A DNA stretch of 35,227 bases from a virus. Lineage: Duplodnaviria > Heunggongvirae > Uroviricota > Caudoviricetes. Location of the stretch: the IMG/VR virus record IMGVR_UViG_2778261451_000005; one strand, 5' to 3'. Position 1 is the stretch's first letter; every line of letters starts with the position of its first letter. Below are positions 2,590-26,991 of the stretch, piece after piece. The translations under genes were made by a program, and so were the position numbers. The notes beneath the pieces are model-generated. The model was given only the letters and a program-made list of their open reading frames with translations, ran no database searches and was not told the DNA's origin.

Positions 2590-3086
2590 CAGTGATGACG
2601 CTCAATCTCGTTGAAAAACAGCCAGCAACTATGCGCCGGATAATTGGTAAGCATCTTGCCGTTCCTCGCTGGCAGGAGACATGTGATTATTATAATCAGA
2701 TGATGGAGCGCGAACGGCTAACAGTTTGCTTTCATGCGCAGTTAAAACAACGTCACGCAACGATGCGTTTTGAAGAAATGAACGACGTCGAACGTGAACG
2801 GCTGGTTTGTGCAATTGATGAACTGCGTGGGGCATTCTCAAAACGCCGTCAGGTCGGTGCAAGTGAGTATGCATATATTAGTTTTTTAACAGTCAGTCAG
2901 CGTCGTACTTTATTTATGCATGCGGGATTGACAGAAAAAGAATTCAATCAGCCGTACTGGCGAATTAATGAAGAATCATGTTACTGGCGTGATGCTTTAT
3001 TCCGTGCATTACGTGAATTATTCAGTCTGTTTGAGTATGCACCGACAATTCTGACGTCGGTAAAACCAGAGCAATATCTGCATTAA
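2586..3086 (+). CDS. B: Replication protein B (helicase loading)
   Basis: 166 aa, same size and position as P2 B; ATG overlaps the upstream stop. Confidence 0.8.
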   Translation: MTVMTLNLVEKQPATMRRIIGKHLAVPRWQETCDYYNQMMERERLTVCFHAQLKQRHATMRFEEMNDVERERLVCAIDELRGAFSKRRQVGASEYAYISFLTVSQRRTLFMHAGLTEKEFNQPYWRINEESCYWRDALFRALRELFSLFEYAPTILTSVKPEQYLH

Positions 3087-3149
3087 GTAATTAACCAGAG
3101 TTTTTAACGCACTTAATCGTGCGGGGCTTCTTTTTGCCTGGAGAAAGTC

Positions 3150-3374
3150 ATGCATACAGTTTCTGAAAATCAGTGCGGTAAATACGCATTACTGCTGCAA
3201 CAGGCCAGAACCGAAGCACAGGCCGACGCTGCGACGCGCTTTTCTTCTCATCTTGACGCCATGATTCGCCACATCACAAAGGCGGAGTTATCCCGCGTGG
3301 AGATAGTCGAGCTGCTCAGTCAGGAGTCGGAAAAATTTCACAACATCGGATTGTCTCGCGGGGAGGTGCTTTGA
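3150..3374 (+). CDS. Early hypothetical protein (P2 orf80 position)
   Basis: 74 aa, ATG with GGAGAAAG SD; conserved position in P2 early operon. Confidence 0.65.
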
Positions 3375-3676
3375 TGTCCTGTTCTCATTCAGTTGTATTA
3401 CTGAACAATGCCTTAAAAATCGCCGTTATGAAAAATGGCGATTTGTCTCTTATTCAACTTGGTCTTGATAAAGAAAAACGCGAAATAACTGAATCTGTTA
3501 TCGCGATTTATCAGAGTGAATTAAACCTCCTGTCTGATGTGGTCAATTTACTTGTTAAACGCGCTGTATTTCACAAGCAAATTTCCTCCGTGGATGAACT
3601 GACGAAATTAACGACAGAAATCGCCAGCTATTGCGCTGATGAATTTAAAAAACTGAACGACAAAAGGAACTGGTAA
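3374..3676 (+). CDS. Early hypothetical protein (P2 orf81 position)
   Basis: ATG at 3374 overlapping upstream stop (ATGA); 100 aa. Confidence 0.65.
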   Translation: MSCSHSVVLLNNALKIAVMKNGDLSLIQLGLDKEKREITESVIAIYQSELNLLSDVVNLLVKRAVFHKQISSVDELTKLTTEIASYCADEFKKLNDKRNW

Positions 3677-3900
3677 TGCCGGACAACGTAGATTTTATTC
3701 AGGAACAACAGGCTGAATTACTGGAGCGCCAGATTAACGCGGCAAGGGTAAAACATTGTGGTGCTTCTGCGCTGGTTTGCGAAGAGTGTGACGCGCCAAT
3801 ACCTGCTGCCCGTCGTGCGGCTTATCCGTCAGCCACGCGTTGTGTTTCCTGTCAGTCAGTCTTTGAAGCAAAAAACAAACATTACCGGAGAACGGCATGA
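3676..3900 (+). CDS. TraR/DksA-type C4 zinc-finger protein (P2 orf82 position)
   Basis: 74 aa with CxxC…CxxC (CEECDAP…CVSCQ); translationally coupled to neighbours. Confidence 0.7.
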   Translation: MPDNVDFIQEQQAELLERQINAARVKHCGASALVCEECDAPIPAARRAAYPSATRCVSCQSVFEAKNKHYRRTA

Positions 3901-6447: not shown

Positions 6448-6899
6448 TGGCAAAAATTCACGAGGTAAAGCTGCACGCAAAATATTTCGACCTTGTGCTG
6501 GAAGGAAAGAAACGCGCAGAGTTTCGGAAAAATGACCGTAATTATGAGCGCGGGGACACGTTGATTTTGCATGAATGGGGGCAGGGTGTGTATACGGGGC
6601 GAAAGGTTGAAGCCCGGATAACAGATGTTACTGACCTGTCAGACTGGCTGGAAGATTATGTCTTGCTAAGTATTGAGCTGCTTAATACAGGCGCATATGA
6701 GATTGTGAACTGGAAAGAACTTAGTGAGCGTGGTCTGTTATTCAGAATTAATCATGAAATTATGCATAAGCTCGGCCTTGCTGTTATGTATGAACCAGAG
6801 ACGGGAATGTCTGGCGGGGCAATGGTTGCCACGGATGGAGCATGGAACTATTCAGATGAACAGATGGAGCGTGCACAGCAAAACGGGTGGCTTGGATAA
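6444..6899 (+). CDS. Hypothetical protein with ASCH/PUA-like (DUF3850-type) N-terminal region (P2 orf91 position)
   Basis: ATG overlaps A stop (ATGA); N-terminus KIHEVKLHAKYFDLVLEGKKRAEFRKNDRNYERGDTLILHEW resembles the DUF3850/ASCH pattern (from memory). Confidence 0.6.
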   Translation: MMAKIHEVKLHAKYFDLVLEGKKRAEFRKNDRNYERGDTLILHEWGQGVYTGRKVEARITDVTDLSDWLEDYVLLSIELLNTGAYEIVNWKELSERGLLFRINHEIMHKLGLAVMYEPETGMSGGAMVATDGAWNYSDEQMERAQQNGWLG

Positions 6900-7170: not shown

Positions 7171-7334
7171 CGTTAGTTGACATTCATATTTTTACTGCGT
7201 TGGTGCTGTTTTTTGACGGTTGAAAGGAGTTATCTCGGAGAGCTAAAGCTAACAACTTACAAATATTCAAAAGTAAGCTTCCTGTTGCTAACATAAGGTC
7301 GATTTTTTATGTGGATGATGCAAAAAGGATAGCT

Positions 7335-8066
7335 ATGGATACTATAATCGCTTTTCTATCACTCGCTTTTTTTGTTGCTTTTTTCATCGGGTTAATCAAG
7401 CCATCACTGGTGCGAATGCCAAGCCGCAAACGTGCAAGTGCGGTTTATCTCGGAGGAGGTTTTGTATTGAGCATAATTGGTTCAATACTCTATCCAACAG
7501 AAAAAAGCCAGCCAGTTGCTAAAACTGAAACATCAACCGTTGTAGAACACCAAGTCCAAAAAACATTCGAATATGGTGAAAAAACACTCAAGGAATATCG
7601 GAGCGAGCCAAAGAAAACTCGACACGATATTGTGAATAGTTACATTGACTTTAAGAAAGTTCCAGTCACCGCATCAGATGCATTTTATGCCTGCATGAGT
7701 GAGTATACATTTACCAAAGATGATGAGTTGAAACTCGGTGATGTTCTTGGGTGGTGCTTTAATGATTATGAAAATGACCCGAGTTCACTAAATAATAAAA
7801 TCAATCTTGATACATTTCAGAGTAATTTTAGTGGTTGGGATGGTTCTTATCGTCCATTGGAAAAACTAATTAAAGATAATATGAACGATGATTCATCTTA
7901 TAAACATGTATCAACGGTATATCATTTAGTTTTGAATAAAGACCCGCACGCCATTGTGAAAACGACGTTTCGCGGCACTAATGCTTATGGTGGCATGGTC
8001 AAACAGACTGTAGCAGCGCGAGTTGACGTGCGAACGGGTGAGATCGATTCAATACTCGACAATTAA
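7335..8066 (+). CDS. Cargo gene 1: membrane-anchored protein of unknown function (two N-terminal TM helices plus ~190-aa domain)
   Basis: ATG at 7335 with AAGGAT SD (ORF-track start 7311 is GTG); hydrophobic segments TIIAFLSLAFFVAFFIGLI and AVYLGGGFVLSIIGSILY separated by a basic loop; AT-rich; occupies the P2 tin/old position. Confidence 0.7.
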   Translation: MDTIIAFLSLAFFVAFFIGLIKPSLVRMPSRKRASAVYLGGGFVLSIIGSILYPTEKSQPVAKTETSTVVEHQVQKTFEYGEKTLKEYRSEPKKTRHDIVNSYIDFKKVPVTASDAFYACMSEYTFTKDDELKLGDVLGWCFNDYENDPSSLNNKINLDTFQSNFSGWDGSYRPLEKLIKDNMNDDSSYKHVSTVYHLVLNKDPHAIVKTTFRGTNAYGGMVKQTVAARVDVRTGEIDSILDN

Positions 8067-8085: not shown

Positions 8086-8143
8086 GTCAGTGATGAAACT
8101 TGCTTTTAGTCTTGGCGGGGTTGAGCAATGAGTCTTGCAAGGT
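8086..8143. repeat. Copy 2 of the ~55-bp repeated element, directly upstream of cargo gene 2
   Basis: cagtgatgaaacttgcttttagtcttggcggggttgagcaatgagtcttgcaagg aligns with 7115..7170. Confidence 0.7.
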
Positions 8144-8149
8144 GTTAGC

Positions 8150-8806
8150 ATGCGTAGAATGGAAGCTGCTTGGACGTGGGGTATTCATATGAATTTAAAA
8201 ATTTTCGGCATAATTGTCCTTTCTGCTTTGATGTTCGTTTTAGGTTTTTTTCTCGGTGGTTTTAATTGGGAATGGGCTGATAAGAATTATGCAGGTGAGG
8301 TGGCGTTGTGGAGTATGTTAGGAGGGTGGTTATCCGCAATTGCAACTCTGTTTGCCGTGTTGGTTTCATTATATATGGCGTATCAAGCTACTCAGAATGA
8401 GATTGAAAAAATCAGGGTTACTCATGGAGTAAGTATGAGTGTCACTCATGACAATGAGTTAAGTTGTAATCTCATTATTCAGAACTTGAGAAATATGAAA
8501 GTGAATATTACTGGTGTTTTTTTGTCTCTAGGTAAATCATCAGGTAAGTACTCTTTGGATAAAGTAATTGACAATCGTAATATAACGCTTTCATATAAAG
8601 GTGAAACAGAAAAGGTACAATTTGTAATCCATTCTGGGTATATTTGGTGGTCAATGTATAAATTATTCGATATGGATAAGAACATAGGTTTTGAAAAGGG
8701 TAAGATCTTTATAACAACCAACCTCAATACATATGAATTTGATTTGCCAAAAGAATATTTAAGAGCTTTTGAGAAAGCTTATTCGGAGTATCAGACAAAA
8801 AAATAA
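8150..8806 (+). CDS. Cargo gene 2: membrane-anchored protein of unknown function (two N-terminal TM helices plus ~130-aa domain)
   Basis: ATG at 8150 preceded by AAGGTG (ORF-track start 8135 is TTG); hydrophobic segments IFGIIVLSALMFVLGFFLGGF and LWSMLGGWLSAIATLFAVLVSLYMAY; strongly AT-rich. Confidence 0.7.
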   Translation: MRRMEAAWTWGIHMNLKIFGIIVLSALMFVLGFFLGGFNWEWADKNYAGEVALWSMLGGWLSAIATLFAVLVSLYMAYQATQNEIEKIRVTHGVSMSVTHDNELSCNLIIQNLRNMKVNITGVFLSLGKSSGKYSLDKVIDNRNITLSYKGETEKVQFVIHSGYIWWSMYKLFDMDKNIGFEKGKIFITTNLNTYEFDLPKEYLRAFEKAYSEYQTKK

Positions 8807-9123: not shown

Positions 9124-10158
9124 TCAGCCGTTGTCAGTGTCCAGTGAGTAGTTTTTAAAGTGGATGACCTCCTGACCGAGCCAGCCGTTTATCTCGCGGA
9201 TCCTGTCCTGTAACGGGATAAGCTCATTGCGGACAAAGACCTTTGCCACTTTCTCAATATCACCCAGCGACCCGACGTTCTCCGGCTTGCCGCCCATCAA
9301 CTGAAAGGGGATGCGGTGCGCGTCCAGCAGGTCAGCGGCGCTGGCTTTTTTGATATTAAAAAAATCGTCCTTCGTTGCCACTTCACTGAGCGGGATAATT
9401 TTAATGCCGTCAGCTTTCCCCTGCGGGGCATAGAGAAACAGGTTTTTAAAGTTGTTGCGGCCTTTCGACTTCACCATGTTTTCGCGGAGCATTTCGATAT
9501 CGTTGCGATCCTGCACGGCATCAGTGACGTACATGATATATCCGGCATGAGCGCCGTTTTCGTAATACTTGCGGCGGAACAGCGTGGCTGATTCATTCAG
9601 CCAGGCAGAGTTAAGGGCGCTGAGATATTCCGGCAGACCGTACAGCTCCTGATTAATATCCGGCTCCAGCAGGTGAAACACGGAGCCGGGCGCGAAAGGT
9701 GTCGGCTCATGGAAGGACGGCACCCACCAGTAAACATCCTCTTCCACGCCACGGCGGGTATATTTTGCCGGTGAGGTTTCCAGTCTGATGACCTTACCGG
9801 TGGTGCTGTAACGCTTTTCCAGAAACGCATTACCGAACACCAGAAAATCCAGCACAAAGCGGCTGAAATCCTGCTGGGAAAGCCACGGATGCGGGATAAA
9901 TGTCGAGGACAGAATATTACGTTTGACGTAAATCGGGGAGCTGTGATGCACGGCAGCACGCAGGCTTTTTGCCAGACCGGTAAAGCTGACCGGTGGCTCA
10001 TACCATCTGCCGTTACTGATGCACTCGACGTAATCCAGAATGTCACGGCGGTCGAGTACCGGTACCGGCTCACCAAAGGTGAATGCCTCCATTTTCGGGG
10101 CGCTGGCGGTCATTGTTTTTGCCGCAGGTTGCGGTGTTTTCCCTTTTTTCTTGCTCAT
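9124..10158 (-). CDS. Q: Portal protein Q
   Basis: 344 aa; near-identical to recalled P2 Q (MSKKKGKTPQPAAKTMTASAPKMEAFTFGEP…). Confidence 0.95.
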   Translation of the reverse strand: MSKKKGKTPQPAAKTMTASAPKMEAFTFGEPVPVLDRRDILDYVECISNGRWYEPPVSFTGLAKSLRAAVHHSSPIYVKRNILSSTFIPHPWLSQQDFSRFVLDFLVFGNAFLEKRYSTTGKVIRLETSPAKYTRRGVEEDVYWWVPSFHEPTPFAPGSVFHLLEPDINQELYGLPEYLSALNSAWLNESATLFRRKYYENGAHAGYIMYVTDAVQDRNDIEMLRENMVKSKGRNNFKNLFLYAPQGKADGIKIIPLSEVATKDDFFNIKKASAADLLDAHRIPFQLMGGKPENVGSLGDIEKVAKVFVRNELIPLQDRIREINGWLGQEVIHFKNYSLDTDNG

Positions 10159-11930
10159 CAGTAAAACTCCAGAATGGTGGATGTCAGCGGAGTGCTGATA
10201 CCGGCGGTGAGTGGCTCATTTAACAGGGCGTGCATGGTCGCCCAGGCGAGGTCGGCGTGGCTGGCTTCCTCGCTGCGGCTGGCCTCATAGGTGGCGCTGC
10301 GTCCGCTGCTGGTCATGGTCTTGCGGATAGCCATAAACGAGCTGGTGATGTCGGTGGCGCTGACGTCATATTCCAGACAGCCTCGGCGGATAACGTCTTT
10401 TGCCTTGAGCACCATTGCGGTTTTCATTTCCGGCGTGTAGCGGATATCGCGCGCGGCGGGATAGAACGAGCGCACGAGCTGGAACACGCCGACACCGAGG
10501 CCGGTGGCATCAATACCGATGTATTCAACGTTATATTTTTCGGTGAGTTTGCGGATGGATTCAGCCTGGGTGGCAAAGTCCATGCCTTTCCACTGGTGAC
10601 GCTCAAGTATTCTGAATTTGCCACCGGCCACCACCGGCGGTGCCAGCACCACGCATCCGGCGCTGTCGCCACGGTGTGACGGGTCGTAACCAATCCATAC
10701 CGGGCGGGAGCCGAACGGATTGGCGGCAAATGGTGCATAGTCTTCCCATTCTTCCAGCGTGTCGACCATGCAGCGTTGCAGCTCCTCGAACGGGAACACC
10801 GACGCCTTGTCGTCAACAAATTCACACATGAACAGGTTTTTAAAATCGTCGGCGCTGTTTTCGCGTTTGAGCTGCTCAATGTCGAACAGCGTGCAGCCGC
10901 CTTTCAGGGCGTCCTCAATGGTGACAATCTGCCGCCACTGGCCGTCCGCACAGAGAAGACCTCCGGCAAGGGCGTTATGACTGACGTCGATTTCCACGCG
11001 TTCGGCGGCGCTGGCGCGTCCCCGGTTAAACAGTTCACCCGACCAGAACGGGTAGGCGTCGTGCGCCAGCGTGGACGGGGTGGAGAAATAGGTCGAACGC
11101 AGGTGACTCTGTGAGGCCATACCTGATGCCACCTTACGCAGTACCTGAAAATTCGGGATCCAGAAAATCTCGTCGACGTACAGGTCGCCGTTATGGCTCT
11201 GTGCGGTGTTGGAGTTGGTGCCGAGAAAAATCAGTTTTGCGCCGTTATTGCCCAGGACAATCGGGTCACCGGTCAGGTCAACGTCAACCAGCCGGGCAAA
11301 GGCGATGATGTATTCGCGGAACACATACGCCTGCGTTTTACTGGCCGACAGAAAAATCTGGTTATGACCGGTTTTCAGGGCGCGCAGCAGCGCCTCGCGG
11401 GAAAAATAAAACGTCGCGCCAATCTGGCGGGATTTCAGGATATCGCGGATGCGGTGCTCAAGCCCGGCGCGATACCAGTGCAACTGATATTCGAAAGACT
11501 GCTCAAAGAAAATCTGCTCCAGCTTTTCGATGGCTTCGTCACTGAAAAAATTCTTTTTCGGTTTGCGACGCCCACCTTTGTTGCGGTTAGCGATGTTCGG
11601 ATTAAGGTCTGCCTCGTTGCCGGTCTGGCTGTAACGGTTGACCCGTGCCAGTCGTTCAATCTGGCGTCCCAGCAGGTCAATTTCCTTGAAGTCCCCGCCG
11701 GTTTTCTGCGGTTTGATGATGAGCTGGGTCAGCCGCGCTTCCAGACTCATTTCGACACGGCTGATGGGGGCAACGCTGTCCCAGCCGTCGCGCTGTTTCC
11801 AGCTCTGCACCGTCGGGCGTTTCATCTGCAACATGGCGGCAATCTGCGGCACGGAAAATCCCTGCCAGTACAGCAGCGCCGCCTGACGACGCGGGTCGTG
11901 TAAAAGAGTGGTGTCTGTGGTGATGGTCAT
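10158..11930 (-). CDS. P: Terminase large subunit P
   Basis: 590 aa from ATG at 11930 (MTITTDTTLLHDPRRQAALLYWQGFSVPQI… as in P2); ORF-track start 11960 is an upstream extension. Confidence 0.93.
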   Translation of the reverse strand: MTITTDTTLLHDPRRQAALLYWQGFSVPQIAAMLQMKRPTVQSWKQRDGWDSVAPISRVEMSLEARLTQLIIKPQKTGGDFKEIDLLGRQIERLARVNRYSQTGNEADLNPNIANRNKGGRRKPKKNFFSDEAIEKLEQIFFEQSFEYQLHWYRAGLEHRIRDILKSRQIGATFYFSREALLRALKTGHNQIFLSASKTQAYVFREYIIAFARLVDVDLTGDPIVLGNNGAKLIFLGTNSNTAQSHNGDLYVDEIFWIPNFQVLRKVASGMASQSHLRSTYFSTPSTLAHDAYPFWSGELFNRGRASAAERVEIDVSHNALAGGLLCADGQWRQIVTIEDALKGGCTLFDIEQLKRENSADDFKNLFMCEFVDDKASVFPFEELQRCMVDTLEEWEDYAPFAANPFGSRPVWIGYDPSHRGDSAGCVVLAPPVVAGGKFRILERHQWKGMDFATQAESIRKLTEKYNVEYIGIDATGLGVGVFQLVRSFYPAARDIRYTPEMKTAMVLKAKDVIRRGCLEYDVSATDITSSFMAIRKTMTSSGRSATYEASRSEEASHADLAWATMHALLNEPLTAGISTPLTSTILEFY

Positions 11931-17429: not shown

Positions 17430-17859
17430 TGCCGTCACGGTGCTGAAAACTAACCCCGATATGCTGCGGATATTCGTGGATAACGGGAGTATTGCCTCCA
17501 CACTGGCGACGTCGCTGTCATTCGAAAAGCGTTACACGCTCAATGTGATTGTGACCGACTTTACCGGTGATTTTGACCTGCTCATTGTGCCGGTGCTGGC
17601 GTGGCTGCGGGAAAATCAGCCCGACATCATGACCACCGACGCAGGCCAGAAAAAGGGCTTCACGTTTTATGCGGACATCAACAATGACAGCAGCTTTGAT
17701 ATCAGCATCAGCCTGATGCTGACCGAGCGAACGCTGGTCAGTGAGGTGGACGGCGCACTGCATGTGAAGAATATCCCGGAACCCCCGCCGCCGGAGCCGG
17801 TCACCCGCCCGATGGAGCTTTATATCAATGGCGAACTGGTGAGCAAGTGGGATGAATGA
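17392..17859 (+). CDS. R: Tail completion protein R
   Basis: 155 aa; P2 order. Confidence 0.9.
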   Translation: MLKPDSLRRALTDAVTVLKTNPDMLRIFVDNGSIASTLATSLSFEKRYTLNVIVTDFTGDFDLLIVPVLAWLRENQPDIMTTDAGQKKGFTFYADINNDSSFDISISLMLTERTLVSEVDGALHVKNIPEPPPPEPVTRPMELYINGELVSKWDE

Positions 17860-18304
17860 GTTTAAGCGTTTTGAAGACCGGCTGACCGGACTGATTGAGT
17901 CGCTGTCACCGTCAGGGCGTCGGCGGCTGAGTGCAGAGCTGGCGAAGCGTCTGCGGCAGAGTCAGCAGCGTCGGGTGATGGCACAGAAAGCCCCGGACGG
18001 CACACCCTACGCGCCACGCCAGCAGCAGAGCGCCAGAAAAAAGACCGGTCGTGTTAAGCGAAAAATGTTTGCGAAACTTATCAACAGTCGTTTTTTGCAT
18101 ATCCGCGCCAGCCCGGAACAGGCATCAATGGAATTTTACGGCGGGAAGTCGCCGAAAATCGCCAGTGTGCATCAGTTCGGTCTGTCGGAAGAAACCCGGA
18201 AAGACGGTAAGAAAATTGATTATCCGGCGCGTCCTCTGCTCGGCTTTACCGGTGAGGATGTGCAGATGATTGAAGAGATTATCCTGACTCACCTTGAGCG
18301 TTAG
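17852..18304 (+). CDS. S: Tail completion protein S
   Basis: 150 aa; P2 order. Confidence 0.9.
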   Translation: MNEFKRFEDRLTGLIESLSPSGRRRLSAELAKRLRQSQQRRVMAQKAPDGTPYAPRQQQSARKKTGRVKRKMFAKLINSRFLHIRASPEQASMEFYGGKSPKIASVHQFGLSEETRKDGKKIDYPARPLLGFTGEDVQMIEEIILTHLER

Positions 18305-18332
18305 TTTTATCCAGGCAGAGGCTGATGCGCAA

Positions 18333-18371
18333 TTAAACATTGAGCGGCCATGCTGGTCGCTCAATGTTTAG
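18333..18371. terminator. Bidirectional hairpin terminator between S and the antisense cargo gene
   Basis: 12-bp perfect stem aaacattgagcg / cgctcaatgttt with 11-nt loop, flanked by A/T-rich sequence on both sides. Confidence 0.6.
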
Positions 18372-18375
18372 AGGT

Positions 18376-19161
18376 TTATGAGTGATTTTTATTTGATGCT
18401 TTGTATTCTAAAACCTTCTTATTGGCGTAAAAGAATTTTGTATATGACAGGAATATAACCAGACCTGAAGTGAAATAGACGAGGGATAGTATTAATAATG
18501 CTTTTTTGTGACTGTTATTATCTTTAATCTCCTGGCTTAACCATTCGGAGTCCTCCTCGTTTAGCTGTAAGAGCTTATTGCAGGCGATCTCAGGAAGTGT
18601 GTCTTTTATAAATACGTTTTGCAGTCTCTTGCAATCGGCAAGGCTATAAGTTTTATTAAATTCAACTGCTTTATTTTTGAAGGATAAAAGAACTTTGTCA
18701 CTATAAACATAGTACATCATGTTTTTATATGGTATGCCTATGGCATCCCTTACTATAACGGATTGTTCGTTGTGTATGTAACATGCGAGGAGAATGTAAA
18801 AAATACTGGCCAGAATTACAATTATTGTTTTAATTATGTGTGGTGGTTTTGTTATGTCACCCCAGATGCGAGTAAGGAAAAAATACGATGTTTTTAGTTT
18901 TCCATCAATCAGTCCCTGCTGTATCATTCTCACATTTTCAATGCCTGATACATTGATTCCATTAATTATTTTAAATAGTTGAATGTCGCGCCACTCGCGG
19001 TCAAGTCTTTTTAATTTTTTGTCTGAATATCCAAAATTGAAATAATGTGCAATAAGCCTCATAAGGTTACTTTTACCAAAGCTAAAAAATGCTAATACTG
19101 CAAAGCTACAAAGGAAAAAAACGATTAGCCCCCACACATTAGTCACATTATAGCTGACCAT
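18376..19161 (-). CDS. Cargo gene: 261-aa integral membrane protein of unknown function (three predicted TM helices), antisense to the tail operon
   Basis: ATG at 19161 with AAGGAGAG SD on minus strand; hydrophobic segments VWGLIVFFLCSFAVLAFFSF, IIKTIIVILASIFYILLACYI, ALLILSLVYFTSGLVIFLSY; strongly AT-rich; inserted between S and V (P2 orf30 position). Confidence 0.75.
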   Translation of the reverse strand: MVSYNVTNVWGLIVFFLCSFAVLAFFSFGKSNLMRLIAHYFNFGYSDKKLKRLDREWRDIQLFKIINGINVSGIENVRMIQQGLIDGKLKTSYFFLTRIWGDITKPPHIIKTIIVILASIFYILLACYIHNEQSVIVRDAIGIPYKNMMYYVYSDKVLLSFKNKAVEFNKTYSLADCKRLQNVFIKDTLPEIACNKLLQLNEEDSEWLSQEIKDNNSHKKALLILSLVYFTSGLVIFLSYTKFFYANKKVLEYKASNKNHS

Positions 19162-19244
19162 TACGCTCTCCTTGAATGTTGTCTGGTAGTTCTACAAATG
19201 AATCCAGATAGCATAACTTTTATATATTGTGCAATCTCACATGC
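19162..19244. promoter_or_regulatory. Region expected to carry late promoter P_V, plus the divergent promoter of the antisense cargo gene
   Basis: Intergenic; contains tgt-N11/12-aca-like element (ttgtctggtagttctacaa) resembling the Ogr-dependent late promoter dyad; assignment tentative. Confidence 0.4.
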
Positions 19245-19880
19245 ATGAACACTCTCGCAAATATTCAGGAACTCGCGCGCGCACTGCGCAACATGATTCG
19301 CACCGGCATTATCGTCGAAACCGACCTTAACGCCGGTCGCTGCCGCGTGCAGACCGGCGGCATGTGCACCGACTGGCTTCAGTGGCTGACCCATCGCGCC
19401 GGTCGTTCGCGCACATGGTGGGCACCTTCCGTGGGGGAACAGGTGCTGATTCTGTCCGTGGGCGGTGAACTCGACACGGCATTCGTTCTGCCGGGAATTT
19501 ATTCCGGCGATAACCCCGCGCCGTCTGCGTCGGCGGATGCCCTGCATATCCGTTTCCCTGACGGGGCGGTGATTGAGTATGAACCCGAAACCAGTGCACT
19601 TACGGTAAGCGGAATTAAAACGGCCAGCGTGACGGCTTCTGATTCTGTTACTGCCACGGTGCCGGTGGTCATGGTGAAAGCATCAACCCGCGTCACCCTG
19701 GACACACCGGAGGTGGTCTGCACCAACAGGCTGATTACCGGCACGCTGGAAGTGCAGAAGGGCGGGACGATGCGCGGCAACATTGAACACACCGGCGGTG
19801 AACTCTCATCAAACGGTAAGGTACTGCATACCCATAAACACCCCGGCGACAGTGGCGGCACAACAGGGGGACCTCTATGA
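19245..19880 (+). CDS. V: Baseplate spike protein V
   Basis: 211 aa from ATG at 19245 (MNTLANIQELARALRNMIRTGIIVETDLNAGRCRVQTGG… as in P2). Confidence 0.93.
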   Translation: MNTLANIQELARALRNMIRTGIIVETDLNAGRCRVQTGGMCTDWLQWLTHRAGRSRTWWAPSVGEQVLILSVGGELDTAFVLPGIYSGDNPAPSASADALHIRFPDGAVIEYEPETSALTVSGIKTASVTASDSVTATVPVVMVKASTRVTLDTPEVVCTNRLITGTLEVQKGGTMRGNIEHTGGELSSNGKVLHTHKHPGDSGGTTGGPL

Positions 19881-21670: not shown

Positions 21671-23776
21671 ATGAGCACAAAATTCAAAACCGTTATCACC
21701 ACTGCCGGTGCAGCAAAGCTGGCAGCGGCAACCGCACCGGGAGGGCGGAAGGTCAACATTACCACGATGGCCGTCGGGGATGGCGGTGGTAAATTGCCTG
21801 TCCCGGATGCCGGACAGACCGGGCTTATCCATGAAGTCTGGCGACATGCGCTGAACAAAATCACCCTGGACAAACGAAACAGTAATTATATTATCGCAGA
21901 GCTGGTTATTCCGCCGGAGGTGGGCGGTTTCTGGATGCGTGAGCTTGGCCTGTACGATGATGCGGGAACGCTAATTGCCGTGGCGAACATGGCTGAAAGT
22001 TATAAACCCGCTCTTGCCGAAGGCTCAGGGCGTTCGCAGACCTGCCGCATGGTCATCATCGTCAGCAGTGTGGCCTCAGTGGAGCTGACCATTGACACCA
22101 CAACGGTGATGGCAACGCAGGATTACGTTGATGACAAAATTGCAGAGCATGAACAGTCACGACGTCACCCGGACGCCTCGCTGACCGCAAAAGGTTTTAC
22201 TCAGTTAAGCAGTGCAACCAACAGCGCGTCTGAAACACTGGCTGCAACGCCGAAAGCGGTAAAGGCCGCGTATGACCTTGCTAACGGGAAATATACTGCG
22301 CAGGATGCCACCACAGCGCGAAAAGGTCTTGTCCAACTCAGTAGTGCCACCAACAGCACGTCTGAAACGCTCGCCGCAACACCAAAAGCGGTAAAGGCCG
22401 CGTATGACCTTGCTAACGGGAAATACACTGCACAGGACGCCACCACAGCGCGAAAAGGTCTTGTTCAGCTCAGTAGCGCCACCAACAGCGATTCTGAAAC
22501 GCTGGCCGCAACGCCAAAGGCGGTAAAGGTCGCGTATGACCTTGCTAACGGGAAATACACTGCACAGGACGCCACCACAGCGAGAAAAGGCCTTGTCCAG
22601 CTCAGTAGCGCCACCAACAGTGATTCTGAAACGCTTGCGGCAACGCCAAAGGCGGTAAAGGTCGCGTATGACCTTGCTAACGGGAAATACACTGCACAGG
22701 ATGCCACCACAGCGCGAAAAGGGCTTGTTCAGCTCAGTAGCGCCACCAACAGTGATTCTGAAACACTGGCCGCAACACCAAAAGCGGTGAAGTCTGCCTA
22801 TGACAATGCTGAAAAACGTCTTCAGAAAGATCAGAACGGTGCGGATATTCCTGATAAAAGATTATTCCTGCGCAATATTGGAGCAACAAATTCAACAACC
22901 ATGTCTTTTAGTGGTGGTACAGGATGGTTCAGGCTGGCAACTGTAACCATGCCCCAGGCCAGTTCCGTGGTTTACATAAGCCTGATTGGTGGTGCCGGAT
23001 ATAATGTTAACTCCCCTATGCAGGCTGGTATATCTGAACTTGTTCTTCGTGCGGGAAATGGAAATCCAAAAGGTCTTACTGGTGCGTTATGGCGACGGAC
23101 ATCGGTTGGATTTACTAATTTTGCATGGGTGAATACATCCGGTGATACCTATGATGTTTATGTTGAAATAGGTAATTACGCCACAGGTGTTAATATTCAG
23201 TGGGATTATACCAGTAACGCCAGCGTAACGATTCATACATCACCAACTTATACAGCGAATAAACCAACAGGCCTGACAGATGGAACTGTATATGTAATTT
23301 ACAGTTCGTACATTAAACCGACTGCTGCTGATGTTGGGGCGTTATCATTATCTGGTGGTCAATTGAATGGTGCTCTGGGTATAGGAACATCCAGTGCTCT
23401 TGGCGGTAATTCGATTGTTTTGGGTGATAATGACACGGGCTTTAAACAAAATGGTGATGGTAATCTGGATGTTTATGCTAATAGCGTCCATGTTATGCGC
23501 TTTGTCTCCGGAAGCGTTCAAAGTAATAAAACCATAAATATTACGGGGCGTGTTAATCCCTCGGATTACGGTAACTTTGATTCCCGCTATGTGAGAGATG
23601 TCAGACTTGGCACACGTGTTGTCCAGACCATGCAGAAAGGGGTGATGTATGAGAAAGCAGGGCACGTAATTACCGGGCTTGGTATTGTCGGTGAAGTCGA
23701 TGGTGATGACCCCGCAGTATTCAGACCAATACAAAAATACATCAATGGCACATGGTATAACGTCGCACAGGTGTAA
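21671..23776 (+). CDS. H: Tail fiber protein H with expanded internal repeats
   Basis: 701 aa; conserved N-terminus; about five tandem 44-aa repeats (…QLSSATNSxSETLAATPKAVKxAYDLANGKYTAQDATTARKG…); AT-richer C-terminal tip. Confidence 0.9.
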   Translation: MSTKFKTVITTAGAAKLAAATAPGGRKVNITTMAVGDGGGKLPVPDAGQTGLIHEVWRHALNKITLDKRNSNYIIAELVIPPEVGGFWMRELGLYDDAGTLIAVANMAESYKPALAEGSGRSQTCRMVIIVSSVASVELTIDTTTVMATQDYVDDKIAEHEQSRRHPDASLTAKGFTQLSSATNSASETLAATPKAVKAAYDLANGKYTAQDATTARKGLVQLSSATNSTSETLAATPKAVKAAYDLANGKYTAQDATTARKGLVQLSSATNSDSETLAATPKAVKVAYDLANGKYTAQDATTARKGLVQLSSATNSDSETLAATPKAVKVAYDLANGKYTAQDATTARKGLVQLSSATNSDSETLAATPKAVKSAYDNAEKRLQKDQNGADIPDKRLFLRNIGATNSTTMSFSGGTGWFRLATVTMPQASSVVYISLIGGAGYNVNSPMQAGISELVLRAGNGNPKGLTGALWRRTSVGFTNFAWVNTSGDTYDVYVEIGNYATGVNIQWDYTSNASVTIHTSPTYTANKPTGLTDGTVYVIYSSYIKPTAADVGALSLSGGQLNGALGIGTSSALGGNSIVLGDNDTGFKQNGDGNLDVYANSVHVMRFVSGSVQSNKTINITGRVNPSDYGNFDSRYVRDVRLGTRVVQTMQKGVMYEKAGHVITGLGIVGEVDGDDPAVFRPIQKYINGTWYNVAQV
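22189..22800 (+). repeat. About 4.6 tandem copies of a 132-bp coding repeat inside H
   Basis: Period 132 bp, nearly identical units; explains the spurious antisense ORFs 22201..22446 and 22465..22710. Confidence 0.85.
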
Positions 23777-24383: not shown

Positions 24384-24485
24384 GGAGCGGACTGACCTGC
24401 TTCCCGATGATTAATACACAGCTATGCTAGTAATGTCCGTAGATCGCTGTGTGTTGCATCCATCGGTTGAACTCACAGTCCAAAC

Positions 24486-24506
24486 CAGACTGTCAGCTTT
24501 GATTAG
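24486..24506. repeat. Site M: cagactgtcagctttgattag, direct copy of site R (26795..26814) and inverted relative to site L
   Basis: 20 of 21 positions match site R, with one indel. Confidence 0.65.
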
Positions 24507-24659
24507 ATTCTACCTACTCAACCTGTCAGATAAGGTCTGAGCTAATACATCTAATATATGGCTTCGTGCAGGGGACGGCTATCGCGAACGTTAGGCCAGG
24601 TATCTGAATACGCACATTCACTTGGTTGTACTTCTTGCACTGATCTGCTATCCCGCACA

Positions 24660-24696
24660 GCTATTTATAGGTAATCTTCAGTGTATAATCTGCCAA
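24660..24696 (+). promoter_or_regulatory. Putative sigma70 promoter for the 280-aa cargo gene
   Basis: Perfect TATAAT at 24684..24689 with a weak -35; AGGAG SD at 24717..24721 before ATG 24728. Confidence 0.45.
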
Positions 24697-24727
24697 CTTA
24701 TGGAAGCTTGTACAACAGGAGAAATAT

Positions 24728-25570
24728 ATGAAAAAAGAATTGTTTGGACGTTGCCCGTTTGATCTTGACGAAGATGTAAAAAAAATAGCCGCGATAAATA
24801 AATATATCCATGCAAAATTTGAGGAGCATAAAAATAAAATAGACAACCTAAAGGGTGTGGAACAAAAATTGATGGTCTTACAGTACTTTAATGTACTGAA
24901 TGAACTTAGTAATCAGGCTATCTCTTCTTTGAATATAGGAGCCTTTTCAGCATCGGAAGTATTAGCTAGGGTTATAATAGAACAGGCTGCCAATCAATTT
25001 TATATAGCAATAGATGATGGCGAAAATGCACAAGCATTACTCAAGGCTAGTAAGAAATTAGTTCATAGTAATGGAAAACGGTGGCTGGAGTGTTTAAAAT
25101 CCAAAGGAATGACTAATCCAGCAGCAAATGAAAGGATTCGCATGGGAAAAGAACTAACTGATCTATTTAATAGATTGTGGCCAAATACACCTGAATATCC
25201 AGGAACCAGAAAACTTTTTGAATTAATTGGCTGGGAAACACACTATCATGCCCATTACGTTCCCCTTTGTGATTCAATACATACATTCTCTGATGATATG
25301 GTAAATATAGTATCTCTATATAATGCAATCCAAAGTGATGAAAATACTGCTATCGAATTCATTCTTGCAGTTAAACAAGAAAATAAACGGCTGGCAATTT
25401 ATAATTTTGTAATTGCTACGGCCCTTCGGTGTGAGGCCTTAGTAAATGTATTTAACTCTTTAGGTTATCAGGATATTATAACAGAAATGACACCAACAAT
25501 AGATACAGTCAACCAGACTATAATTCGATATGATGATTTTGATCATTCCAGAATTGATGATTGTCAATAA
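24728..25570 (+). CDS. Cargo gene: 280-aa soluble protein of unknown function (candidate defence/exclusion effector)
   Basis: ATG with AGGAG SD; AT-rich; no TM segments or motifs I recognise; in the P2 Z/fun position. Confidence 0.75.
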   Translation: MKKELFGRCPFDLDEDVKKIAAINKYIHAKFEEHKNKIDNLKGVEQKLMVLQYFNVLNELSNQAISSLNIGAFSASEVLARVIIEQAANQFYIAIDDGENAQALLKASKKLVHSNGKRWLECLKSKGMTNPAANERIRMGKELTDLFNRLWPNTPEYPGTRKLFELIGWETHYHAHYVPLCDSIHTFSDDMVNIVSLYNAIQSDENTAIEFILAVKQENKRLAIYNFVIATALRCEALVNVFNSLGYQDIITEMTPTIDTVNQTIIRYDDFDHSRIDDCQ

Positions 25571-25676
25571 TTAATTGACAGAATACGTACATGCGCAACA
25601 ACTAGTGATAGTTGACTTATTTTCGCTCTTGAGAGACAACCATACTCAAATCTCCCACATTGCAGGAGATTTGAAT

Positions 25677-26261
25677 ATGAAAACGTCACCGTGGAATAAA
25701 GACCGTACCATCGGTCAAAAAAGGCCACTTCAGATATCTCATATCTGGGGGATCCGGATTAGACTTGAGTTGGAAGGTAAAACACGCGATCTAGCTCTGT
25801 TCAACATGGCTTTGGACACTAAGCTACGGGGCTGTGATTTGGTCAAACTCAAAGTATCAGATGCTGCATATGGCAGTTCTGTCTCAAGCAGAGCAACGGT
25901 GTTGCAACAGAAAACCGGCAGCCCTGTCCAATTTGAGATAACCAAAGGGACAAGGGAAGCGGTTACTGCATTGATAAAGCTCGGCAACTGGCATAGTAAA
26001 GGCTTCCTGTTCCGCTCTCGGGTCGGAACTAACCACCATATATCAACCCGGCAATACAACCGAATTTTTCATGGGTGGGTAGAAAAGCTTGGTCTCGAAG
26101 ATTCGCTGTACAGCACACATTCCATGAGAAGAACAAAACCTTACTTAATCTACAAGAAAACCAAGAGTCTCCGGGTGATCCAACTTCTGTTGGGCCATAA
26201 GAAACTGGAAAGCACAGTCCGTTATTTGGGCATTGAAGTCGATATAGAAGGTCTCTTTTAA
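25677..26261 (+). CDS. Small tyrosine recombinase, catalytic domain only (FimB/FimE-like size)
   Basis: 194 aa from ATG at 25677 with AGGAG SD (ORF-track start 25575 rejected); catalytic signature R (…TKLRGCDL…), HxxR (…THSMRRT…), LLGHxxxxxTxxY (…LLGHKKLESTVRY…); lacks an N-terminal core-binding domain. Confidence 0.75.
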   Translation: MKTSPWNKDRTIGQKRPLQISHIWGIRIRLELEGKTRDLALFNMALDTKLRGCDLVKLKVSDAAYGSSVSSRATVLQQKTGSPVQFEITKGTREAVTALIKLGNWHSKGFLFRSRVGTNHHISTRQYNRIFHGWVEKLGLEDSLYSTHSMRRTKPYLIYKKTKSLRVIQLLLGHKKLESTVRYLGIEVDIEGLF

Positions 26262-26283
26262 GTTATGGGGGCTGATTTTATAT

Positions 26284-26661
26284 TCAATAGCGTATGCTCA
26301 TCGAAGAAATAAACTCATAAAATGTAAAGACAGCCAGCAAAAACATACAGATAAAGATAAGGGAAATAGCACACTTAACTAAGGGCTGAACCCCCCGAGG
26401 TGTTCCCCATGGTTTAGACATTTGGGTTATAACCCAAATAAATAAGGCCACAAAACAGCAAACACCAGCCAATCCGAGCAGAGATATTATGACAACTCCA
26501 AACAGATTTCCAACATCTAGTTTATCTGTTTTTGCAACTAGGGTTAACAAACCAGCAATAATAGTTGCAATCGATATTCCCGCAATGGTTGTGAGATCGG
26601 CGATAACAGCCAGTTTTTCTTTAGTATTTCCTTGAGTAAAAACCTCTAAAATTGATTTCAT
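26284..26661 (-). CDS. Cargo gene: 125-aa membrane protein (three predicted TM helices), convergent with the recombinase
   Basis: ATG at 26661 with AGGTGG SD; TATAAT-like -10 elements upstream on minus strand; hydrophobic segments throughout; AT-rich. Confidence 0.65.
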   Translation of the reverse strand: MKSILEVFTQGNTKEKLAVIADLTTIAGISIATIIAGLLTLVAKTDKLDVGNLFGVVIISLLGLAGVCCFVALFIWVITQMSKPWGTPRGVQPLVKCAISLIFICMFLLAVFTFYEFISSMSIRY

Positions 26662-26792
26662 GGAAATAACCACCTACTATCGATTATATTCAGGAGCTTT
26701 TTATTATAACGATATCAGATAGATAAGGACATTGTAATATTTTGGATGATTTAAACTTGCTTTTGTAACTCTAATGTCCACTTTTCGCTCAA

Positions 26793-26814
26793 AGCAGACT
26801 GTCAGATTTGATAG
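26793..26814. repeat. Site R: agcagactgtcagatttgatag (inverted partner of site L, direct partner of site M)
   Basis: Exact 16-bp reverse-complement match to 24360..24375; lies between the island and FI. Confidence 0.7.
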
Positions 26815-26867
26815 CATTTGGGCTATGTAAATTGTCAGGCGGAAAATGAGTGAGTACAAATCAGGAC

Positions 26868-26895
26868 AGGCGGGCGAATTGCCCGCCTTTTCTTT
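26868..26895 (+). terminator. Rho-independent terminator upstream of FI
   Basis: aggcgggc / gcccgcct stem, 5-nt loop, followed by TTTTCTTT. Confidence 0.7.
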
Positions 26896-26991
26896 ATCTG
26901 TTGTTTCATCCACTGACCAGTCAGGTCAAATAGCGTCTCATGCACTGCCCAACAGAAAATAGTTGCACCCATTAACCACGGAGTTAAACGG
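26896..26991 (+). promoter_or_regulatory. Region expected to contain late promoter P_F
   Basis: Position upstream of FI as in P2; specific Ogr dyad not confidently located. Confidence 0.4.

What the first reader, a model, noticed from the sequence alone, without database searches (positions are those of the whole stretch)
18305..19244. Antisense membrane-protein gene inserted between tail genes S and V
A strongly AT-rich 261-aa three-TM protein gene is inserted on the opposite strand between S and V, insulated by a 12-bp-stem bidirectional hairpin terminator and carrying its own SD. It is a third cargo site distinct from the two classical hotspots, and the protein has no recognisable motif, so it is a candidate lysogenic-conversion or exclusion gene expressed independently of the late operon.
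Basis: partly seen in the sequence, partly recalled or inferred. Interest (0 to 1): 0.65.

Follow-up and report, generated by a model that had tools for sequence, protein, structure and literature searches.

The report
Phage P2 orf30, an unexplained membrane gene
The flagged gene is orf30 of phage P2, described in 1998: a non-essential, AT-rich inner-membrane protein gene of unknown function that sits backwards between two tail genes, at an insertion site already in the literature. It also proves to be the P2 copy of a fast-diverging family that holds this same position in many P2-like prophages.

Summary
Window 18376-19161 (- strand) is an intact 261-aa ORF with three hydrophobic helices. Its GC is 34%, against 55-60% in the flanks. 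It has an AAGGAG ribosome-binding site, and a strong hairpin separates its 3' end from the end of gene S.

It is not new. The protein is 99.6% identical to phage P2 Orf30 (annotated "nonessential"). The S/V gap is already described in the literature as the third site of horizontally acquired genes in P2-like phages.

What I add:
- Orf30 belongs to a small family of about 250-270 aa proteins, distantly linked to Pfam DUF6216. In 9 of 12 sampled clusters, and in all 80 IMG/VR loci, the gene lies antisense in the same S/V gap, at only 16-40% identity.
- Predicted topology is N-out/C-in, with a conserved cytoplasmic helical loop and a periplasmic domain that carries exactly two cysteines in all 29 aligned members.
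- The gene is under purifying selection (dN/dS 0.46, 71 of 71 copies intact), but its alleles are mosaic, most of all in the membrane helices.
- Elsewhere the same gap holds a type VI retron and other cargo.
- The fold has no relative in PDB or BFVD.

Function is untested. My best guess, at about 0.4, is a membrane-level anti-phage or exclusion protein made in lysogens.

The parts
17852..18304 (+). Gene S (tail completion), the left flank of the slot
   Evidence: 150-aa ORF. Matches P2 gpS in the annotated P2 record.
18305..19244 (.). AT-rich island filling the whole S/V gap
   Evidence: GC 0.34-0.44 against 0.55-0.60 in the flanks. Replaced by an unrelated 66-bp spacer in L-413C and fiAA91-ss.
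18334..18370 (.). Hairpin between the convergent 3' ends of S and orf30; a putative bidirectional terminator
   Evidence: 17-nt arms, 94% complementary, 3-nt loop. Folding energy -27.1 and -21.3 kcal/mol, z = -6.5 and -6.0. Corresponds to the P2 'putative rho-independent terminator for O operon' at 9397-9433. The U tract is only 3 nt, and the consensus scan did not call it.
18376..19161 (-). orf30 coding sequence: 261 aa, 30.4 kDa, pI 9.4, predicted inner-membrane protein with three transmembrane helices
   Evidence: ORF. 99.6% identical to P2 Orf30 by tblastn. Full-length match to PHROG 2407, E 5.5e-149. Transmembrane segments 4-31, 106-132 and 219-241. AlphaFold2 model pLDDT 84.3, pTM 0.75.
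19168..19173 (-). Shine-Dalgarno sequence AAGGAG, six bases upstream of the orf30 ATG
   Evidence: Read directly from the sequence. Conserved in all P2-type alleles.
19176..19203 (+). Late-activator (Ogr) binding site of the V promoter; it lies inside the presumed orf30 leader
   Evidence: Transferred from the P2 annotation at 10239-10266, using an offset of 8937. The ACAACA half-site is conserved next to the start of the orf30-like gene in diverged loci.
19245..19880 (+). Gene V (baseplate spike), the right flank of the slot
   Evidence: 211-aa protein. 100% identical to V of P2_AC1. V is annotated at the corresponding position in P2.

Best explanation
**Identity (near certain).** This is orf30 of a P2-type prophage. 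It is a non-essential accessory gene in the S/V cargo gap, and it is the P2 representative of a small family, remotely related to DUF6216, that occupies this gap in many P2-like phages.

**Anatomy (predicted).**
- An inner-membrane protein with the N terminus outside and the C terminus inside.
- TM1, then a conserved, basic, roughly 75-aa helical cytoplasmic loop with the motif D-x-Q-L-F-[KR]-x-x-N-G-I-N-V...D-A.
- TM2, then a roughly 85-aa periplasmic domain: a four-stranded sheet plus helices, with a conserved cysteine pair.
- TM3, then a short basic tail.

**Function (inferred, not shown).**
- The protein is made, or is held in reserve under H-NS silencing, when the late operons are off. 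It runs antisense to them, and the Ogr site of the V promoter lies in its leader.
- It protects the lysogen at the inner membrane against other phages.
- The most likely route is interference with genome entry (superinfection-exclusion type). An abortive, membrane-damaging response is less likely.
- The shuffling of variable transmembrane-helix segments between alleles would then set which intruders are recognised.

**My odds.** About 0.4 for an anti-phage role of any kind, and about 0.2-0.25 for an entry block specifically.
For: **Identity.**
- 98-99% nucleotide identity to P2 and P2_AC1 over 2.1 kb.
- The P2 record annotates orf30 as nonessential.
- 99.6% amino-acid identity.
- Full-length match to PHROG 2407.

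**A real, selected protein.**
- 71 of 71 copies are intact, giving 45 distinct proteins.
- dN/dS is 0.46 overall and 0.23-0.37 in the two loops and the tail.

**Family and position.**
- A profile search of 1.84 billion representatives gave 44 hits, almost all 250-270 aa.
- Nine of 12 sampled clusters (16-34% identical to Orf30) lie antisense in the S/V gap.
- So do all 80 IMG/VR loci.

**Acts on its own.**
- It is a single gene.
- In Enterobacter it also occurs as an isolated AT-rich islet with no P2 genes within 3 kb.

**Topology.**
- Lys+Arg counts next to the membrane helices favour N-out/C-in in 25 of 29 members.
- The N terminus has no Lys or Arg in 28 of 29.
- There are exactly two cysteines in loop 2 in 29 of 29.

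**Arms-race signature.**
- Within P2 proper, Orf30 is 80-100% identical while R, S, W and J are mostly 96-100% and V mostly 95-100% identical.
- dN is 5-10 times that of the tail genes.
- Divergence is mosaic and concentrated in TM1 and in TM2/loop 2.

**Company it keeps.**
- The same gap holds a complete type VI retron (RT_VI 2.6e-104, HTH_VI 6e-36) in Yersinia phage vB_YenM_56.17.
- It holds a weak LmuA-like hit in a Klebsiella phage.

**Timing.**
- It runs antisense to both late operons.
- It converges on S and overlaps its 3' end in several lineages.
- It is divergent from the Ogr-dependent V promoter.
Against: - There are no expression data, and no convincing sigma-70 promoter in the 83 bp upstream.
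- There is no match to any PADLOC v2 defence model.
- From my own knowledge of P2 genetics, the classical exclusion phenotypes of P2 lysogens map to old, tin and fun(Z). P2 vir1 also plates on P2 lysogens, so Orf30 does not exclude P2 itself under laboratory conditions.
- Long-term residence at one locus is unlike typical defence cargo, which PMC13586616 reports is swapped very rapidly.
- dN/dS near 1 in TM1 and TM3 may simply be neutral exchange of hydrophobic residues.
- Guilt by association with the retron rests on a few loci.
Confidence: 0.4

Rival explanations
1. It is an envelope-protecting conversion gene unrelated to phages. For example, it could be an orphan immunity protein that neutralises membrane-inserting toxins (pore-forming colicins or bacteriocins, or membrane-targeting type VI effectors) through helix-helix contacts in the inner membrane.
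For: - A predicted inner-membrane protein with three helices.
- Variation is concentrated in the membrane helices and shuffled between alleles. In the known pore-former immunity proteins, that is where specificity lies (my own knowledge).
- It works as a lone gene, and it also occurs as a chromosomal islet in Enterobacter.
- One family member gives a faint match to the colicin K immunity family (E 0.11).
Against: - The colicin K immunity match is noise-level and seen in 1 of 29 members.
- No toxin gene is adjacent in any of the loci examined.
- The near-exclusive link with one position in P2-like phages argues for a phage-related role.
- At about 260 aa, with two folded soluble domains, it is larger than the known immunity proteins (my own knowledge).
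Confidence: 0.15
2. It is a helper in the phage's own life cycle. For example, it could act at the inner membrane on lysis timing, on the phage's own DNA entry or exit, or against the P4 satellite. Its fixed place between the tail-completion and baseplate genes would then reflect co-regulation with them.
For: - It has kept its position beside V across lineages whose V proteins are only 63-86% identical.
- It shares a regulatory region with the late V promoter, with the Ogr site in its leader.
- It has no terminator of its own in several lineages.
Against: - It runs antisense to both late operons, so it would meet head-on transcription late in infection.
- It is annotated as nonessential.
- It is missing from about 70% of E. 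coli genomes that carry a P2-type V gene, and from viable phages.
- It is retained intact in the defective prophage of E. coli B, which has lost the region from Q to S.
- It occurs without any phage genes nearby in Enterobacter.
Confidence: 0.15
3. It is silent baggage: a horizontally acquired AT-rich gene kept off by H-NS, contributing nothing measurable and persisting only because the S/V gap tolerates insertions.
For: - Extreme AT-richness.
- No detectable strong promoter.
- No phenotype is attached to it in the P2 annotation, which says only 'nonessential'; I also recall no reported phenotype (my own knowledge).
Against: - 71 of 71 copies are intact.
- The loops are under purifying selection, dN/dS 0.23-0.37.
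- A motif, a cysteine pair and the overall architecture are conserved across members only 16-40% identical.
- L015 carries a tandem duplicate.
Confidence: 0.1

Closest known systems
Bacteriophage P2 Orf30 (AAD03281.1, AF063097 9439-10224 complement; PHROG 2407)
   Same: 99.6% amino-acid identity, and the same length, strand, flanking genes, hairpin and V-promoter elements.
   Different: Nothing of substance; the window carries an allele of that gene. Its function is still recorded as unknown (PMC3091744, PMC2771037).
Pfam DUF6216 (PF19723)
   Same: Same length class (profile of 270 positions) and full-length collinear alignment. Family member P0030, which lies in an S/V gap, passes the Pfam cut-off (28.9 bits against 27.3). 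In all, 10 of 29 members give hits. The Orf30 profile finds P0030 at E 8.5e-14.
   Different: Orf30 itself gives no DUF6216 hit even at E<=10. DUF6216 has no known function, so the link names the family without explaining it.
The two classical P2 cargo hotspots: old/tin (between A and Q) and Z/fun (between G and FI)
   Same: An AT-rich, non-essential insert in a conserved backbone, variable between relatives, and able to hold defence systems. The S/V gap carries a type VI retron in vB_YenM_56.17.
   Different: In the S/V gap one family recurs as a long-term resident at 16-40% identity, sometimes with extra cargo beside it. It is antisense to the late genes, and no function is known.
Prophage 'morons' that encode membrane proteins, such as lambda lom and bor and HK97 gp15 (comparison from my own knowledge)
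   Same: A small, AT-rich, single-gene unit inside the late or tail region of a temperate phage, encoding an envelope protein that is dispensable for growth. HK97 gp15 is an inner-membrane protein that blocks DNA entry.
   Different: No sequence or fold similarity was found to anything in PDB or BFVD. The promoter, and expression in lysogens, are not shown for orf30.
Inner-membrane superinfection-exclusion proteins, such as T4 Imm and P22 SieA (comparison from my own knowledge)
   Same: Predicted inner-membrane location, single-gene action, phage-encoded, rapid diversification.
   Different: Orf30 is larger and has two folded soluble domains. No homology was detected and no exclusion phenotype is known.

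Membership tests
P2 Orf30 / PHROG 2407 | Full-length sequence match to the family profile and to P2 Orf30 | tested here: met
   phrog_2407 E 5.5e-149, residues 1-261 on profile positions 1-261. 99.6% identity to AF063097 orf30.
P2 Orf30 / PHROG 2407 | Located antisense between S and V of a P2-type genome | tested here: met
   The same holds in all 80 IMG/VR loci.
Pfam DUF6216 (PF19723) | The protein scores above the Pfam gathering cut-off (27.3 bits) | tested here: not met
   Orf30 has no Pfam hit at E<=10.
Pfam DUF6216 (PF19723) | Transitive homology through intermediate family members | tested here: met
   The Orf30 profile hits P0030 at E 8.5e-14. P0030 scores 28.9 bits, full length, on DUF6216. 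Ten of 29 members give DUF6216 as their most frequent hit.
Moron (autonomous gene unit in a prophage late region) | Base composition distinct from the surrounding phage genes | tested here: met
   GC 0.34 against 0.55-0.60. GC3 0.36 against 0.60-0.65. The same contrast is seen in every homologous locus examined.
Moron (autonomous gene unit in a prophage late region) | Own terminator | tested here: inconclusive
   There is a strong hairpin, but with only a 3-nt U tract, and the consensus scan did not call it. It is absent in L016, L102, L103 and L104, where the gene abuts or overlaps S.
Moron (autonomous gene unit in a prophage late region) | Own promoter, active in the lysogen | tested here: inconclusive
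   No site matching 9 or more of 12 consensus positions lies upstream of the ATG. Only weak AT-rich -10-like hexamers overlap the V promoter. Expression cannot be tested with these tools.
Known anti-phage defence systems (PADLOC-DB v2.0) | Match to a model of a known or candidate defence protein | tested here: not met
   0 families at E<=10.
Superinfection-exclusion proteins acting at the inner membrane | Integral inner-membrane protein encoded by a temperate phage | tested here: met
   Three transmembrane segments. The positive-inside bias is consistent in 25 of 29 members. This is a prediction only.
Superinfection-exclusion proteins acting at the inner membrane | Expression in the lysogen blocks DNA entry of a superinfecting phage | not testable with these tools
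   This needs phage challenge and DNA-entry assays.
Superinfection-exclusion proteins acting at the inner membrane | Sequence or fold similarity to a characterised member | tested here: not met
Pore-forming colicin immunity proteins | Match to an immunity family, and linkage to a toxin gene | tested here: not met
   Colicin K immunity family at E 0.11 in 1 of 29 members. No toxin gene is adjacent in any locus.

The most novel reading that the evidence does not exclude
Orf30 and its DUF6216-like relatives are a previously unrecognised class of phage-encoded inner-membrane exclusion or defence proteins with a new fold. They would be fixed in the S/V gap of Peduoviridae for a long evolutionary time, kept AT-rich so that H-NS holds them in check, and diversified by shuffling of transmembrane-helix modules that set which invading phages (or satellites) are blocked. 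A 2026 preprint that I could not open (10.64898/2026.09.05.749240) mentions DUF6216, 'P2-like prophage' and BL21 together, and may already bear on this.
Probability: 0.3. Interest if true: 0.6.

Novelty: already known. Interest (0 to 1): 0.33.

Why it matters
P2 is a textbook phage, and orf30 is still listed with function unknown in the gene tables I could read (PMC3091744, PMC2771037).

- About 9% of complete E. coli genomes carry orf30 (464 of 5426), including the laboratory B lineage.
- It belongs to a family that holds the same spot in many P2-like prophages, evolves several times faster than its neighbours, and has a fold with no known relative.
- Together these make it a cheap and well-defined target: one gene, many natural alleles, and obvious phage-challenge assays.
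- If it is an exclusion or defence protein, it would add a membrane-level, single-gene mechanism to the P2 hotspot repertoire. It would also give a natural system for studying specificity carried by transmembrane helices.
- If it is not, the persistence of an AT-rich gene at one locus still needs an explanation.

Tried and rejected
- **Pfam, PADLOC and PDB sequence searches with Orf30 or the family profile.** They gave no informative hit.
- **Two AlphaFold2 models.** The shallow alignment gave pLDDT 72 and the 29-sequence alignment gave pLDDT 84.
  - Only generic helical-bundle matches came back.
  - The AlphaFold database libraries were not available.
- **Two 48-49 aa ORFs upstream of distant homologue P0016.** They looked briefly like bacteriocin precursors. 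On reading, they are fragments of a tyrosine-recombinase C terminus, so I rejected the idea.
- **Covariation of Orf30 alleles with the V spike.** I found none. The 92% V variant and the standard V both occur with the 100% Orf30 allele.
- **A sigma-70 promoter for orf30.** Nothing convincing turned up.
- **Non-homologous occupants of the gap.** phiCTX orf15, the R18C 246-aa protein and the Klebsiella 230-aa antisense protein are not family members by profile search.
- **Searching genome collections with the broad alignments.** The narrow alignment found only three Enterobacter loci.
- **Papers I could not open.** The H-NS preprint and the Christie and Calendar P2 review.
- **Accession and family-identifier searches of the literature.** They found nothing.
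Full report
**1. What is there**

The window is a P2-type prophage. Between the stop codon of tail-completion gene S (18304) and the start codon of baseplate-spike gene V (19245) lies a 940-bp island.
- Its GC is 0.34-0.44, against 0.55-0.60 on both sides.
- On the - strand it carries one long ORF, 18376-19161: ATG start, 261 aa, 30.4 kDa, pI 9.4.
- With this base composition a stop-free run of 261 codons has probability about 3e-9. The longest ORF in 2000 shuffles of the island was 183 codons.
- AAGGAG sits six bases upstream of the ATG.
- Three hydrophobic segments (4-31, 106-132, 219-241) pass a Kyte-Doolittle threshold of 1.6.
- Between the convergent ends of S and the ORF is a 17-nt-arm inverted repeat, 18334-18350 / 18354-18370. 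It folds at -27.1 and -21.3 kcal/mol on the two strands, better than all 200 shuffles.
- Only three U residues follow the hairpin, and the consensus terminator scan did not call it.

The stem is in fact longer than the 12 bp claimed.

**2. What it is**

- The 2.1-kb stretch around the ORF is 98.1% identical to bacteriophage P2 and 99.0% identical to P2_AC1.
- In the P2 record the ORF is 'orf30, nonessential'. The hairpin is the 'putative rho-independent terminator for O operon'. A late-activator binding site for the V promoter lies at the position that maps to window 19176-19203.
- The protein is 99.6% identical to P2 Orf30. It matches PHROG 2407 (unknown function) end to end at E 5.5e-149.
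- The literature already describes both the gene and the site. [quoted passage not shown] PMC3091744, citing Nilsson and Haggard-Ljungquist, lists the TO region, the Z region and orf30 as the three loci where P2-like phages carry horizontally acquired genes.

The finding is therefore a rediscovery of a known gene at a known cargo site.

**3. Accessory status**

- Viable relatives have an unrelated 66-68 bp spacer in place of the island: L-413C, fiAA91-ss, phage 899 and the 186-like Eganvirus phages.
- Among 5426 complete E. coli genomes, 1574 carry a P2-type V gene and 464 carry orf30. All copies are chromosomal, and all those listed are annotated 'hypothetical protein'.
- E. coli B keeps an intact allele inside a defective prophage that has lost everything from Q to S.

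**4. The family**

- The word-indexed search found only five clusters, at 98%, 88%, 84%, 80% and 39% identity.
- An exhaustive HMMER profile search of 1.84 billion representatives found 44 relatives, 36 of them below E 1e-10. Nearly all full-length ones are 250-270 aa.
- In an alignment of 29 full-length members (16-39% identical to Orf30 outside the close alleles), G68, G87, C194 and I212 are invariant.
- The motif D-x-Q-L-F-[KR]-x-x-N-G-I-N-V...D-A in the first loop is the most conserved stretch.
- Ten of the 29 members give Pfam DUF6216 as a hit. One of them, P0030, passes the curated cut-off over its full length (28.9 bits against 27.3).
- Orf30 itself gives no Pfam hit. It is therefore a remote relative of DUF6216 rather than a member by Pfam's own rule.

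**5. Position is conserved far beyond sequence**

I looked up the genomic context of 12 family clusters.
- Nine lie antisense in the S/V gap of P2-like prophages or viral contigs: Orf30, P0006, P0008, P0021, P0023, P0026, P0030, P0033 and P0036.
- All 80 loci recovered from IMG/VR have the same arrangement.
- In these lineages V is 63-86% identical to the window copy, J 63-82% and R 60-84%. The Orf30 relative is only 22-40% identical.
- GC is 0.30-0.36 in every homologue, against 0.48-0.61 for its neighbours.
- In L016 the gene ends 3 bp from S. In L102, L103 and L104 it overlaps the end of S. The hairpin is therefore a feature of the P2 lineage, not of the family.
- L015 carries two tandem paralogues.
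- Three clusters were not shown to lie in the gap. P0016 sits beside recombinase fragments, P0017 is on short contigs next to a DsbA-like gene, and P0005 is at a contig end.
- In Enterobacter sp. ECC-219 and E. nematophilus the gene is a lone AT-rich islet with no P2 genes within 3 kb.

So this is not random cargo. One family has kept this position across genus-level divergence, and it can also work as a stand-alone gene.

**6. The gap is nevertheless a true cargo site**

In other Peduoviridae it holds different contents:
- a complete type VI retron (PADLOC RT_VI E 2.6e-104, HTH_VI E 6e-36) in Yersinia phage vB_YenM_56.17;
- a weak LmuA-like protein in Klebsiella phage Kp4886-2;
- an HNH-like 246-aa gene in R18C, and again beside the Orf30 relative in L096;
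- two-helix membrane proteins in L093 and in Klebsiella phage ST11-VIM1phi8.4;
- an ORF6N protein plus two small genes in L100;
- DUF7480 plus a 180-aa protein in L104;
- a DNA methylase in Burkholderia phage phiE12-2;
- a soluble AT-rich 242-aa protein in phiCTX.

None of the alternative occupants I tested against the family profile matches it.

**7. Selection**

- All 71 full-length copies in the P2 lineage are intact. They give 53 nucleotide alleles and 45 distinct proteins.
- Against the window copy, orf30 reaches dN 0.10 and dS 0.24, with dN/dS of 0.4-0.5. In the same loci V, S, W, R and J have dN of 0.02 or less, dS mostly about 0.04-0.15, and dN/dS mostly 0.05-0.25.
- The fraction of variable sites is 61% in the N terminus plus TM1, 70% in TM2, 43% in TM3, 38% in loop 2, 24% in loop 1 and 15% in the C tail.
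- Divergence is mosaic. Blocks of 77-86% nucleotide identity are confined to about 19000-19160 (the N-terminal third, densest in TM1), or to 18600-18900 (TM2 and loop 2). They sit inside a backbone that is mostly 91-100% identical. This points to recombination within the gene between old alleles.
- A crude averaged Nei-Gojobori estimate gives dN/dS of 1.17 for TM1, 1.71 for TM3, 0.48 for TM2 and 0.23-0.37 for the loops and tail.
- These segment values are suggestive only. The segments are short, the pairs are not independent, recombination is present, and hydrophobic exchange within helices may be near neutral.

**8. Architecture**

- The family-wide charge distribution favours N-out/C-in. Lys+Arg counts next to the helices agree in 25 of 29 members, and the N terminus lacks Lys and Arg in 28 of 29.
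- This places the conserved basic loop 1 and the C tail in the cytoplasm and loop 2 in the periplasm.
- Loop 2 has exactly two cysteines in all 29 members, as expected for a periplasmic disulfide.
- The AlphaFold2 model from the 29-sequence alignment is fairly confident: pLDDT 84.3, pTM 0.75. It shows long helices at 6-40, 109-134 and 202-260, a helical loop 1, and a four-stranded sheet (140-173) plus helices in loop 2.
- No catalytic-looking motif is conserved. I read the protein as a binder or gate rather than an enzyme; this is inference.

**9. Regulation (inferred)**

- Only 83 bp separate the orf30 ATG from the V ATG.
- The annotated activator site of the V promoter lies 15 nt upstream of the orf30 start. 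Its ACAACA half-site is conserved in the same relative place in diverged loci.
- Any orf30 promoter must therefore overlap the V core promoter on the opposite strand, and Ogr would bind within the orf30 leader.
- The scan found no good sigma-70 promoter there.
- The geometry fits a gene that can be read only while the late promoters are silent. The AT-richness fits H-NS control. Neither point is shown.
- A preprint I could not open mentions DUF6216 once, 'P2-like prophage' four times and BL21 29 times. It may already address this.

**10. Most likely function, and rivals**

- I put about 0.4 on a membrane-level anti-phage role in the lysogen, and about 0.2-0.25 on a block of genome entry specifically.
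- The grounds are: single-gene autonomy, inner-membrane location with a periplasmic domain, fast mosaic diversification, antisense placement to the late genes, and the defence cargo found in the same gap elsewhere.
- Against it: no defence-model hit, no expression data, and unusually stable residence for defence cargo. From my own knowledge, the classical P2 exclusion phenotypes map to old, tin and fun, and P2 vir1 grows on P2 lysogens.
- Rivals are an orphan immunity or envelope-protection factor (0.15), a helper in the phage's own cycle (0.15) and silent baggage (0.1). The remaining probability is unassigned.

**11. Verdict**

- The useful additions are the family-wide positional conservation, the link to DUF6216, the predicted topology with a conserved cysteine pair, the selection pattern, and the catalogue of other cargo in the gap.
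- Novelty: already known. Interest: modest, about 0.33, because a well-defined experiment could settle a long-standing 'function unknown' in a model phage.

Noticed in passing
window 7311-8066 and 8135-8806 (+ strand), with 6411-6899 upstream: The classical hotspot between A and Q holds two AT-rich ORFs (251 and 223 aa, GC about 0.37-0.40) with no Pfam or PADLOC hit. They are candidate unknown cargo. The ORF just upstream (162 aa) carries ASCH/DUF3850 and DUF7415 domains.
   Followed up: partly
window 24400-26900: The Z/fun slot is AT-rich (GC 0.34-0.45). It holds a DUF5677 protein (24728-25570, E 5e-10), a short 228-aa phage-integrase-family protein (25575-26261, E 1.5e-17) and a 129-aa antisense ORF (26284-26673). 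None matches a PADLOC model.
   Followed up: partly
window 21671-23776, repeats at about 22180-22860: Tail-fibre gene H encodes five near-identical tandem repeats of about 44 aa (DATTARKGLVQLSSATNS.SETLAATPKAVK.AYDLANGKYTAQ). Repeated antisense ORFs mirror them.
   Followed up: no
L108 (E. coli B-LamR, NZ_CP115179.1 2100023-2105808): The defective P2-like prophage of E. coli B has a portal-gene fragment joined to an S fragment. It still keeps an intact orf30 allele (WP_000490543.1, 91% nucleotide identity), followed by V, W, J and I.
   Followed up: partly
L114 (Yersinia phage vB_YenM_56.17) 980-2400: A complete type VI retron (HTH_VI plus RT_VI) sits in the S/V gap on the late-gene strand. 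This shows that the gap can carry a recognised defence system.
   Followed up: yes
L015 8001-8771 and 8900-9658: Two tandem paralogues of the Orf30 family lie next to V in a P2-like remnant. Both score E < 1e-76 against the family profile.
   Followed up: partly
L106, L107 (Enterobacter chromosomes) 3001-3753; L004: A family member occurs as a single-gene AT-rich islet (GC 0.33-0.35 against 0.57) with no P2 genes within 3 kb. In L004 it lies beside ordinary chromosomal genes: an outer-membrane beta-barrel protein, SIP, PadR and chemoreceptors.
   Followed up: partly
window 17852-18304 compared with L009, L011, L016, L093-L099: gpS is only 47-51% identical between lineages whose neighbouring R, V and J proteins are 66-86% identical. 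The gene bordering the gap is much more diverged than the rest of the tail module.
   Followed up: no
window 18376-19161 (whole window): The orf30 allele is 100% identical in nucleotides to E. coli PCN033 (NZ_CP006632.1), and V is 99.8% identical there. That strain, or a close relative, is the probable source of the window.
   Followed up: no
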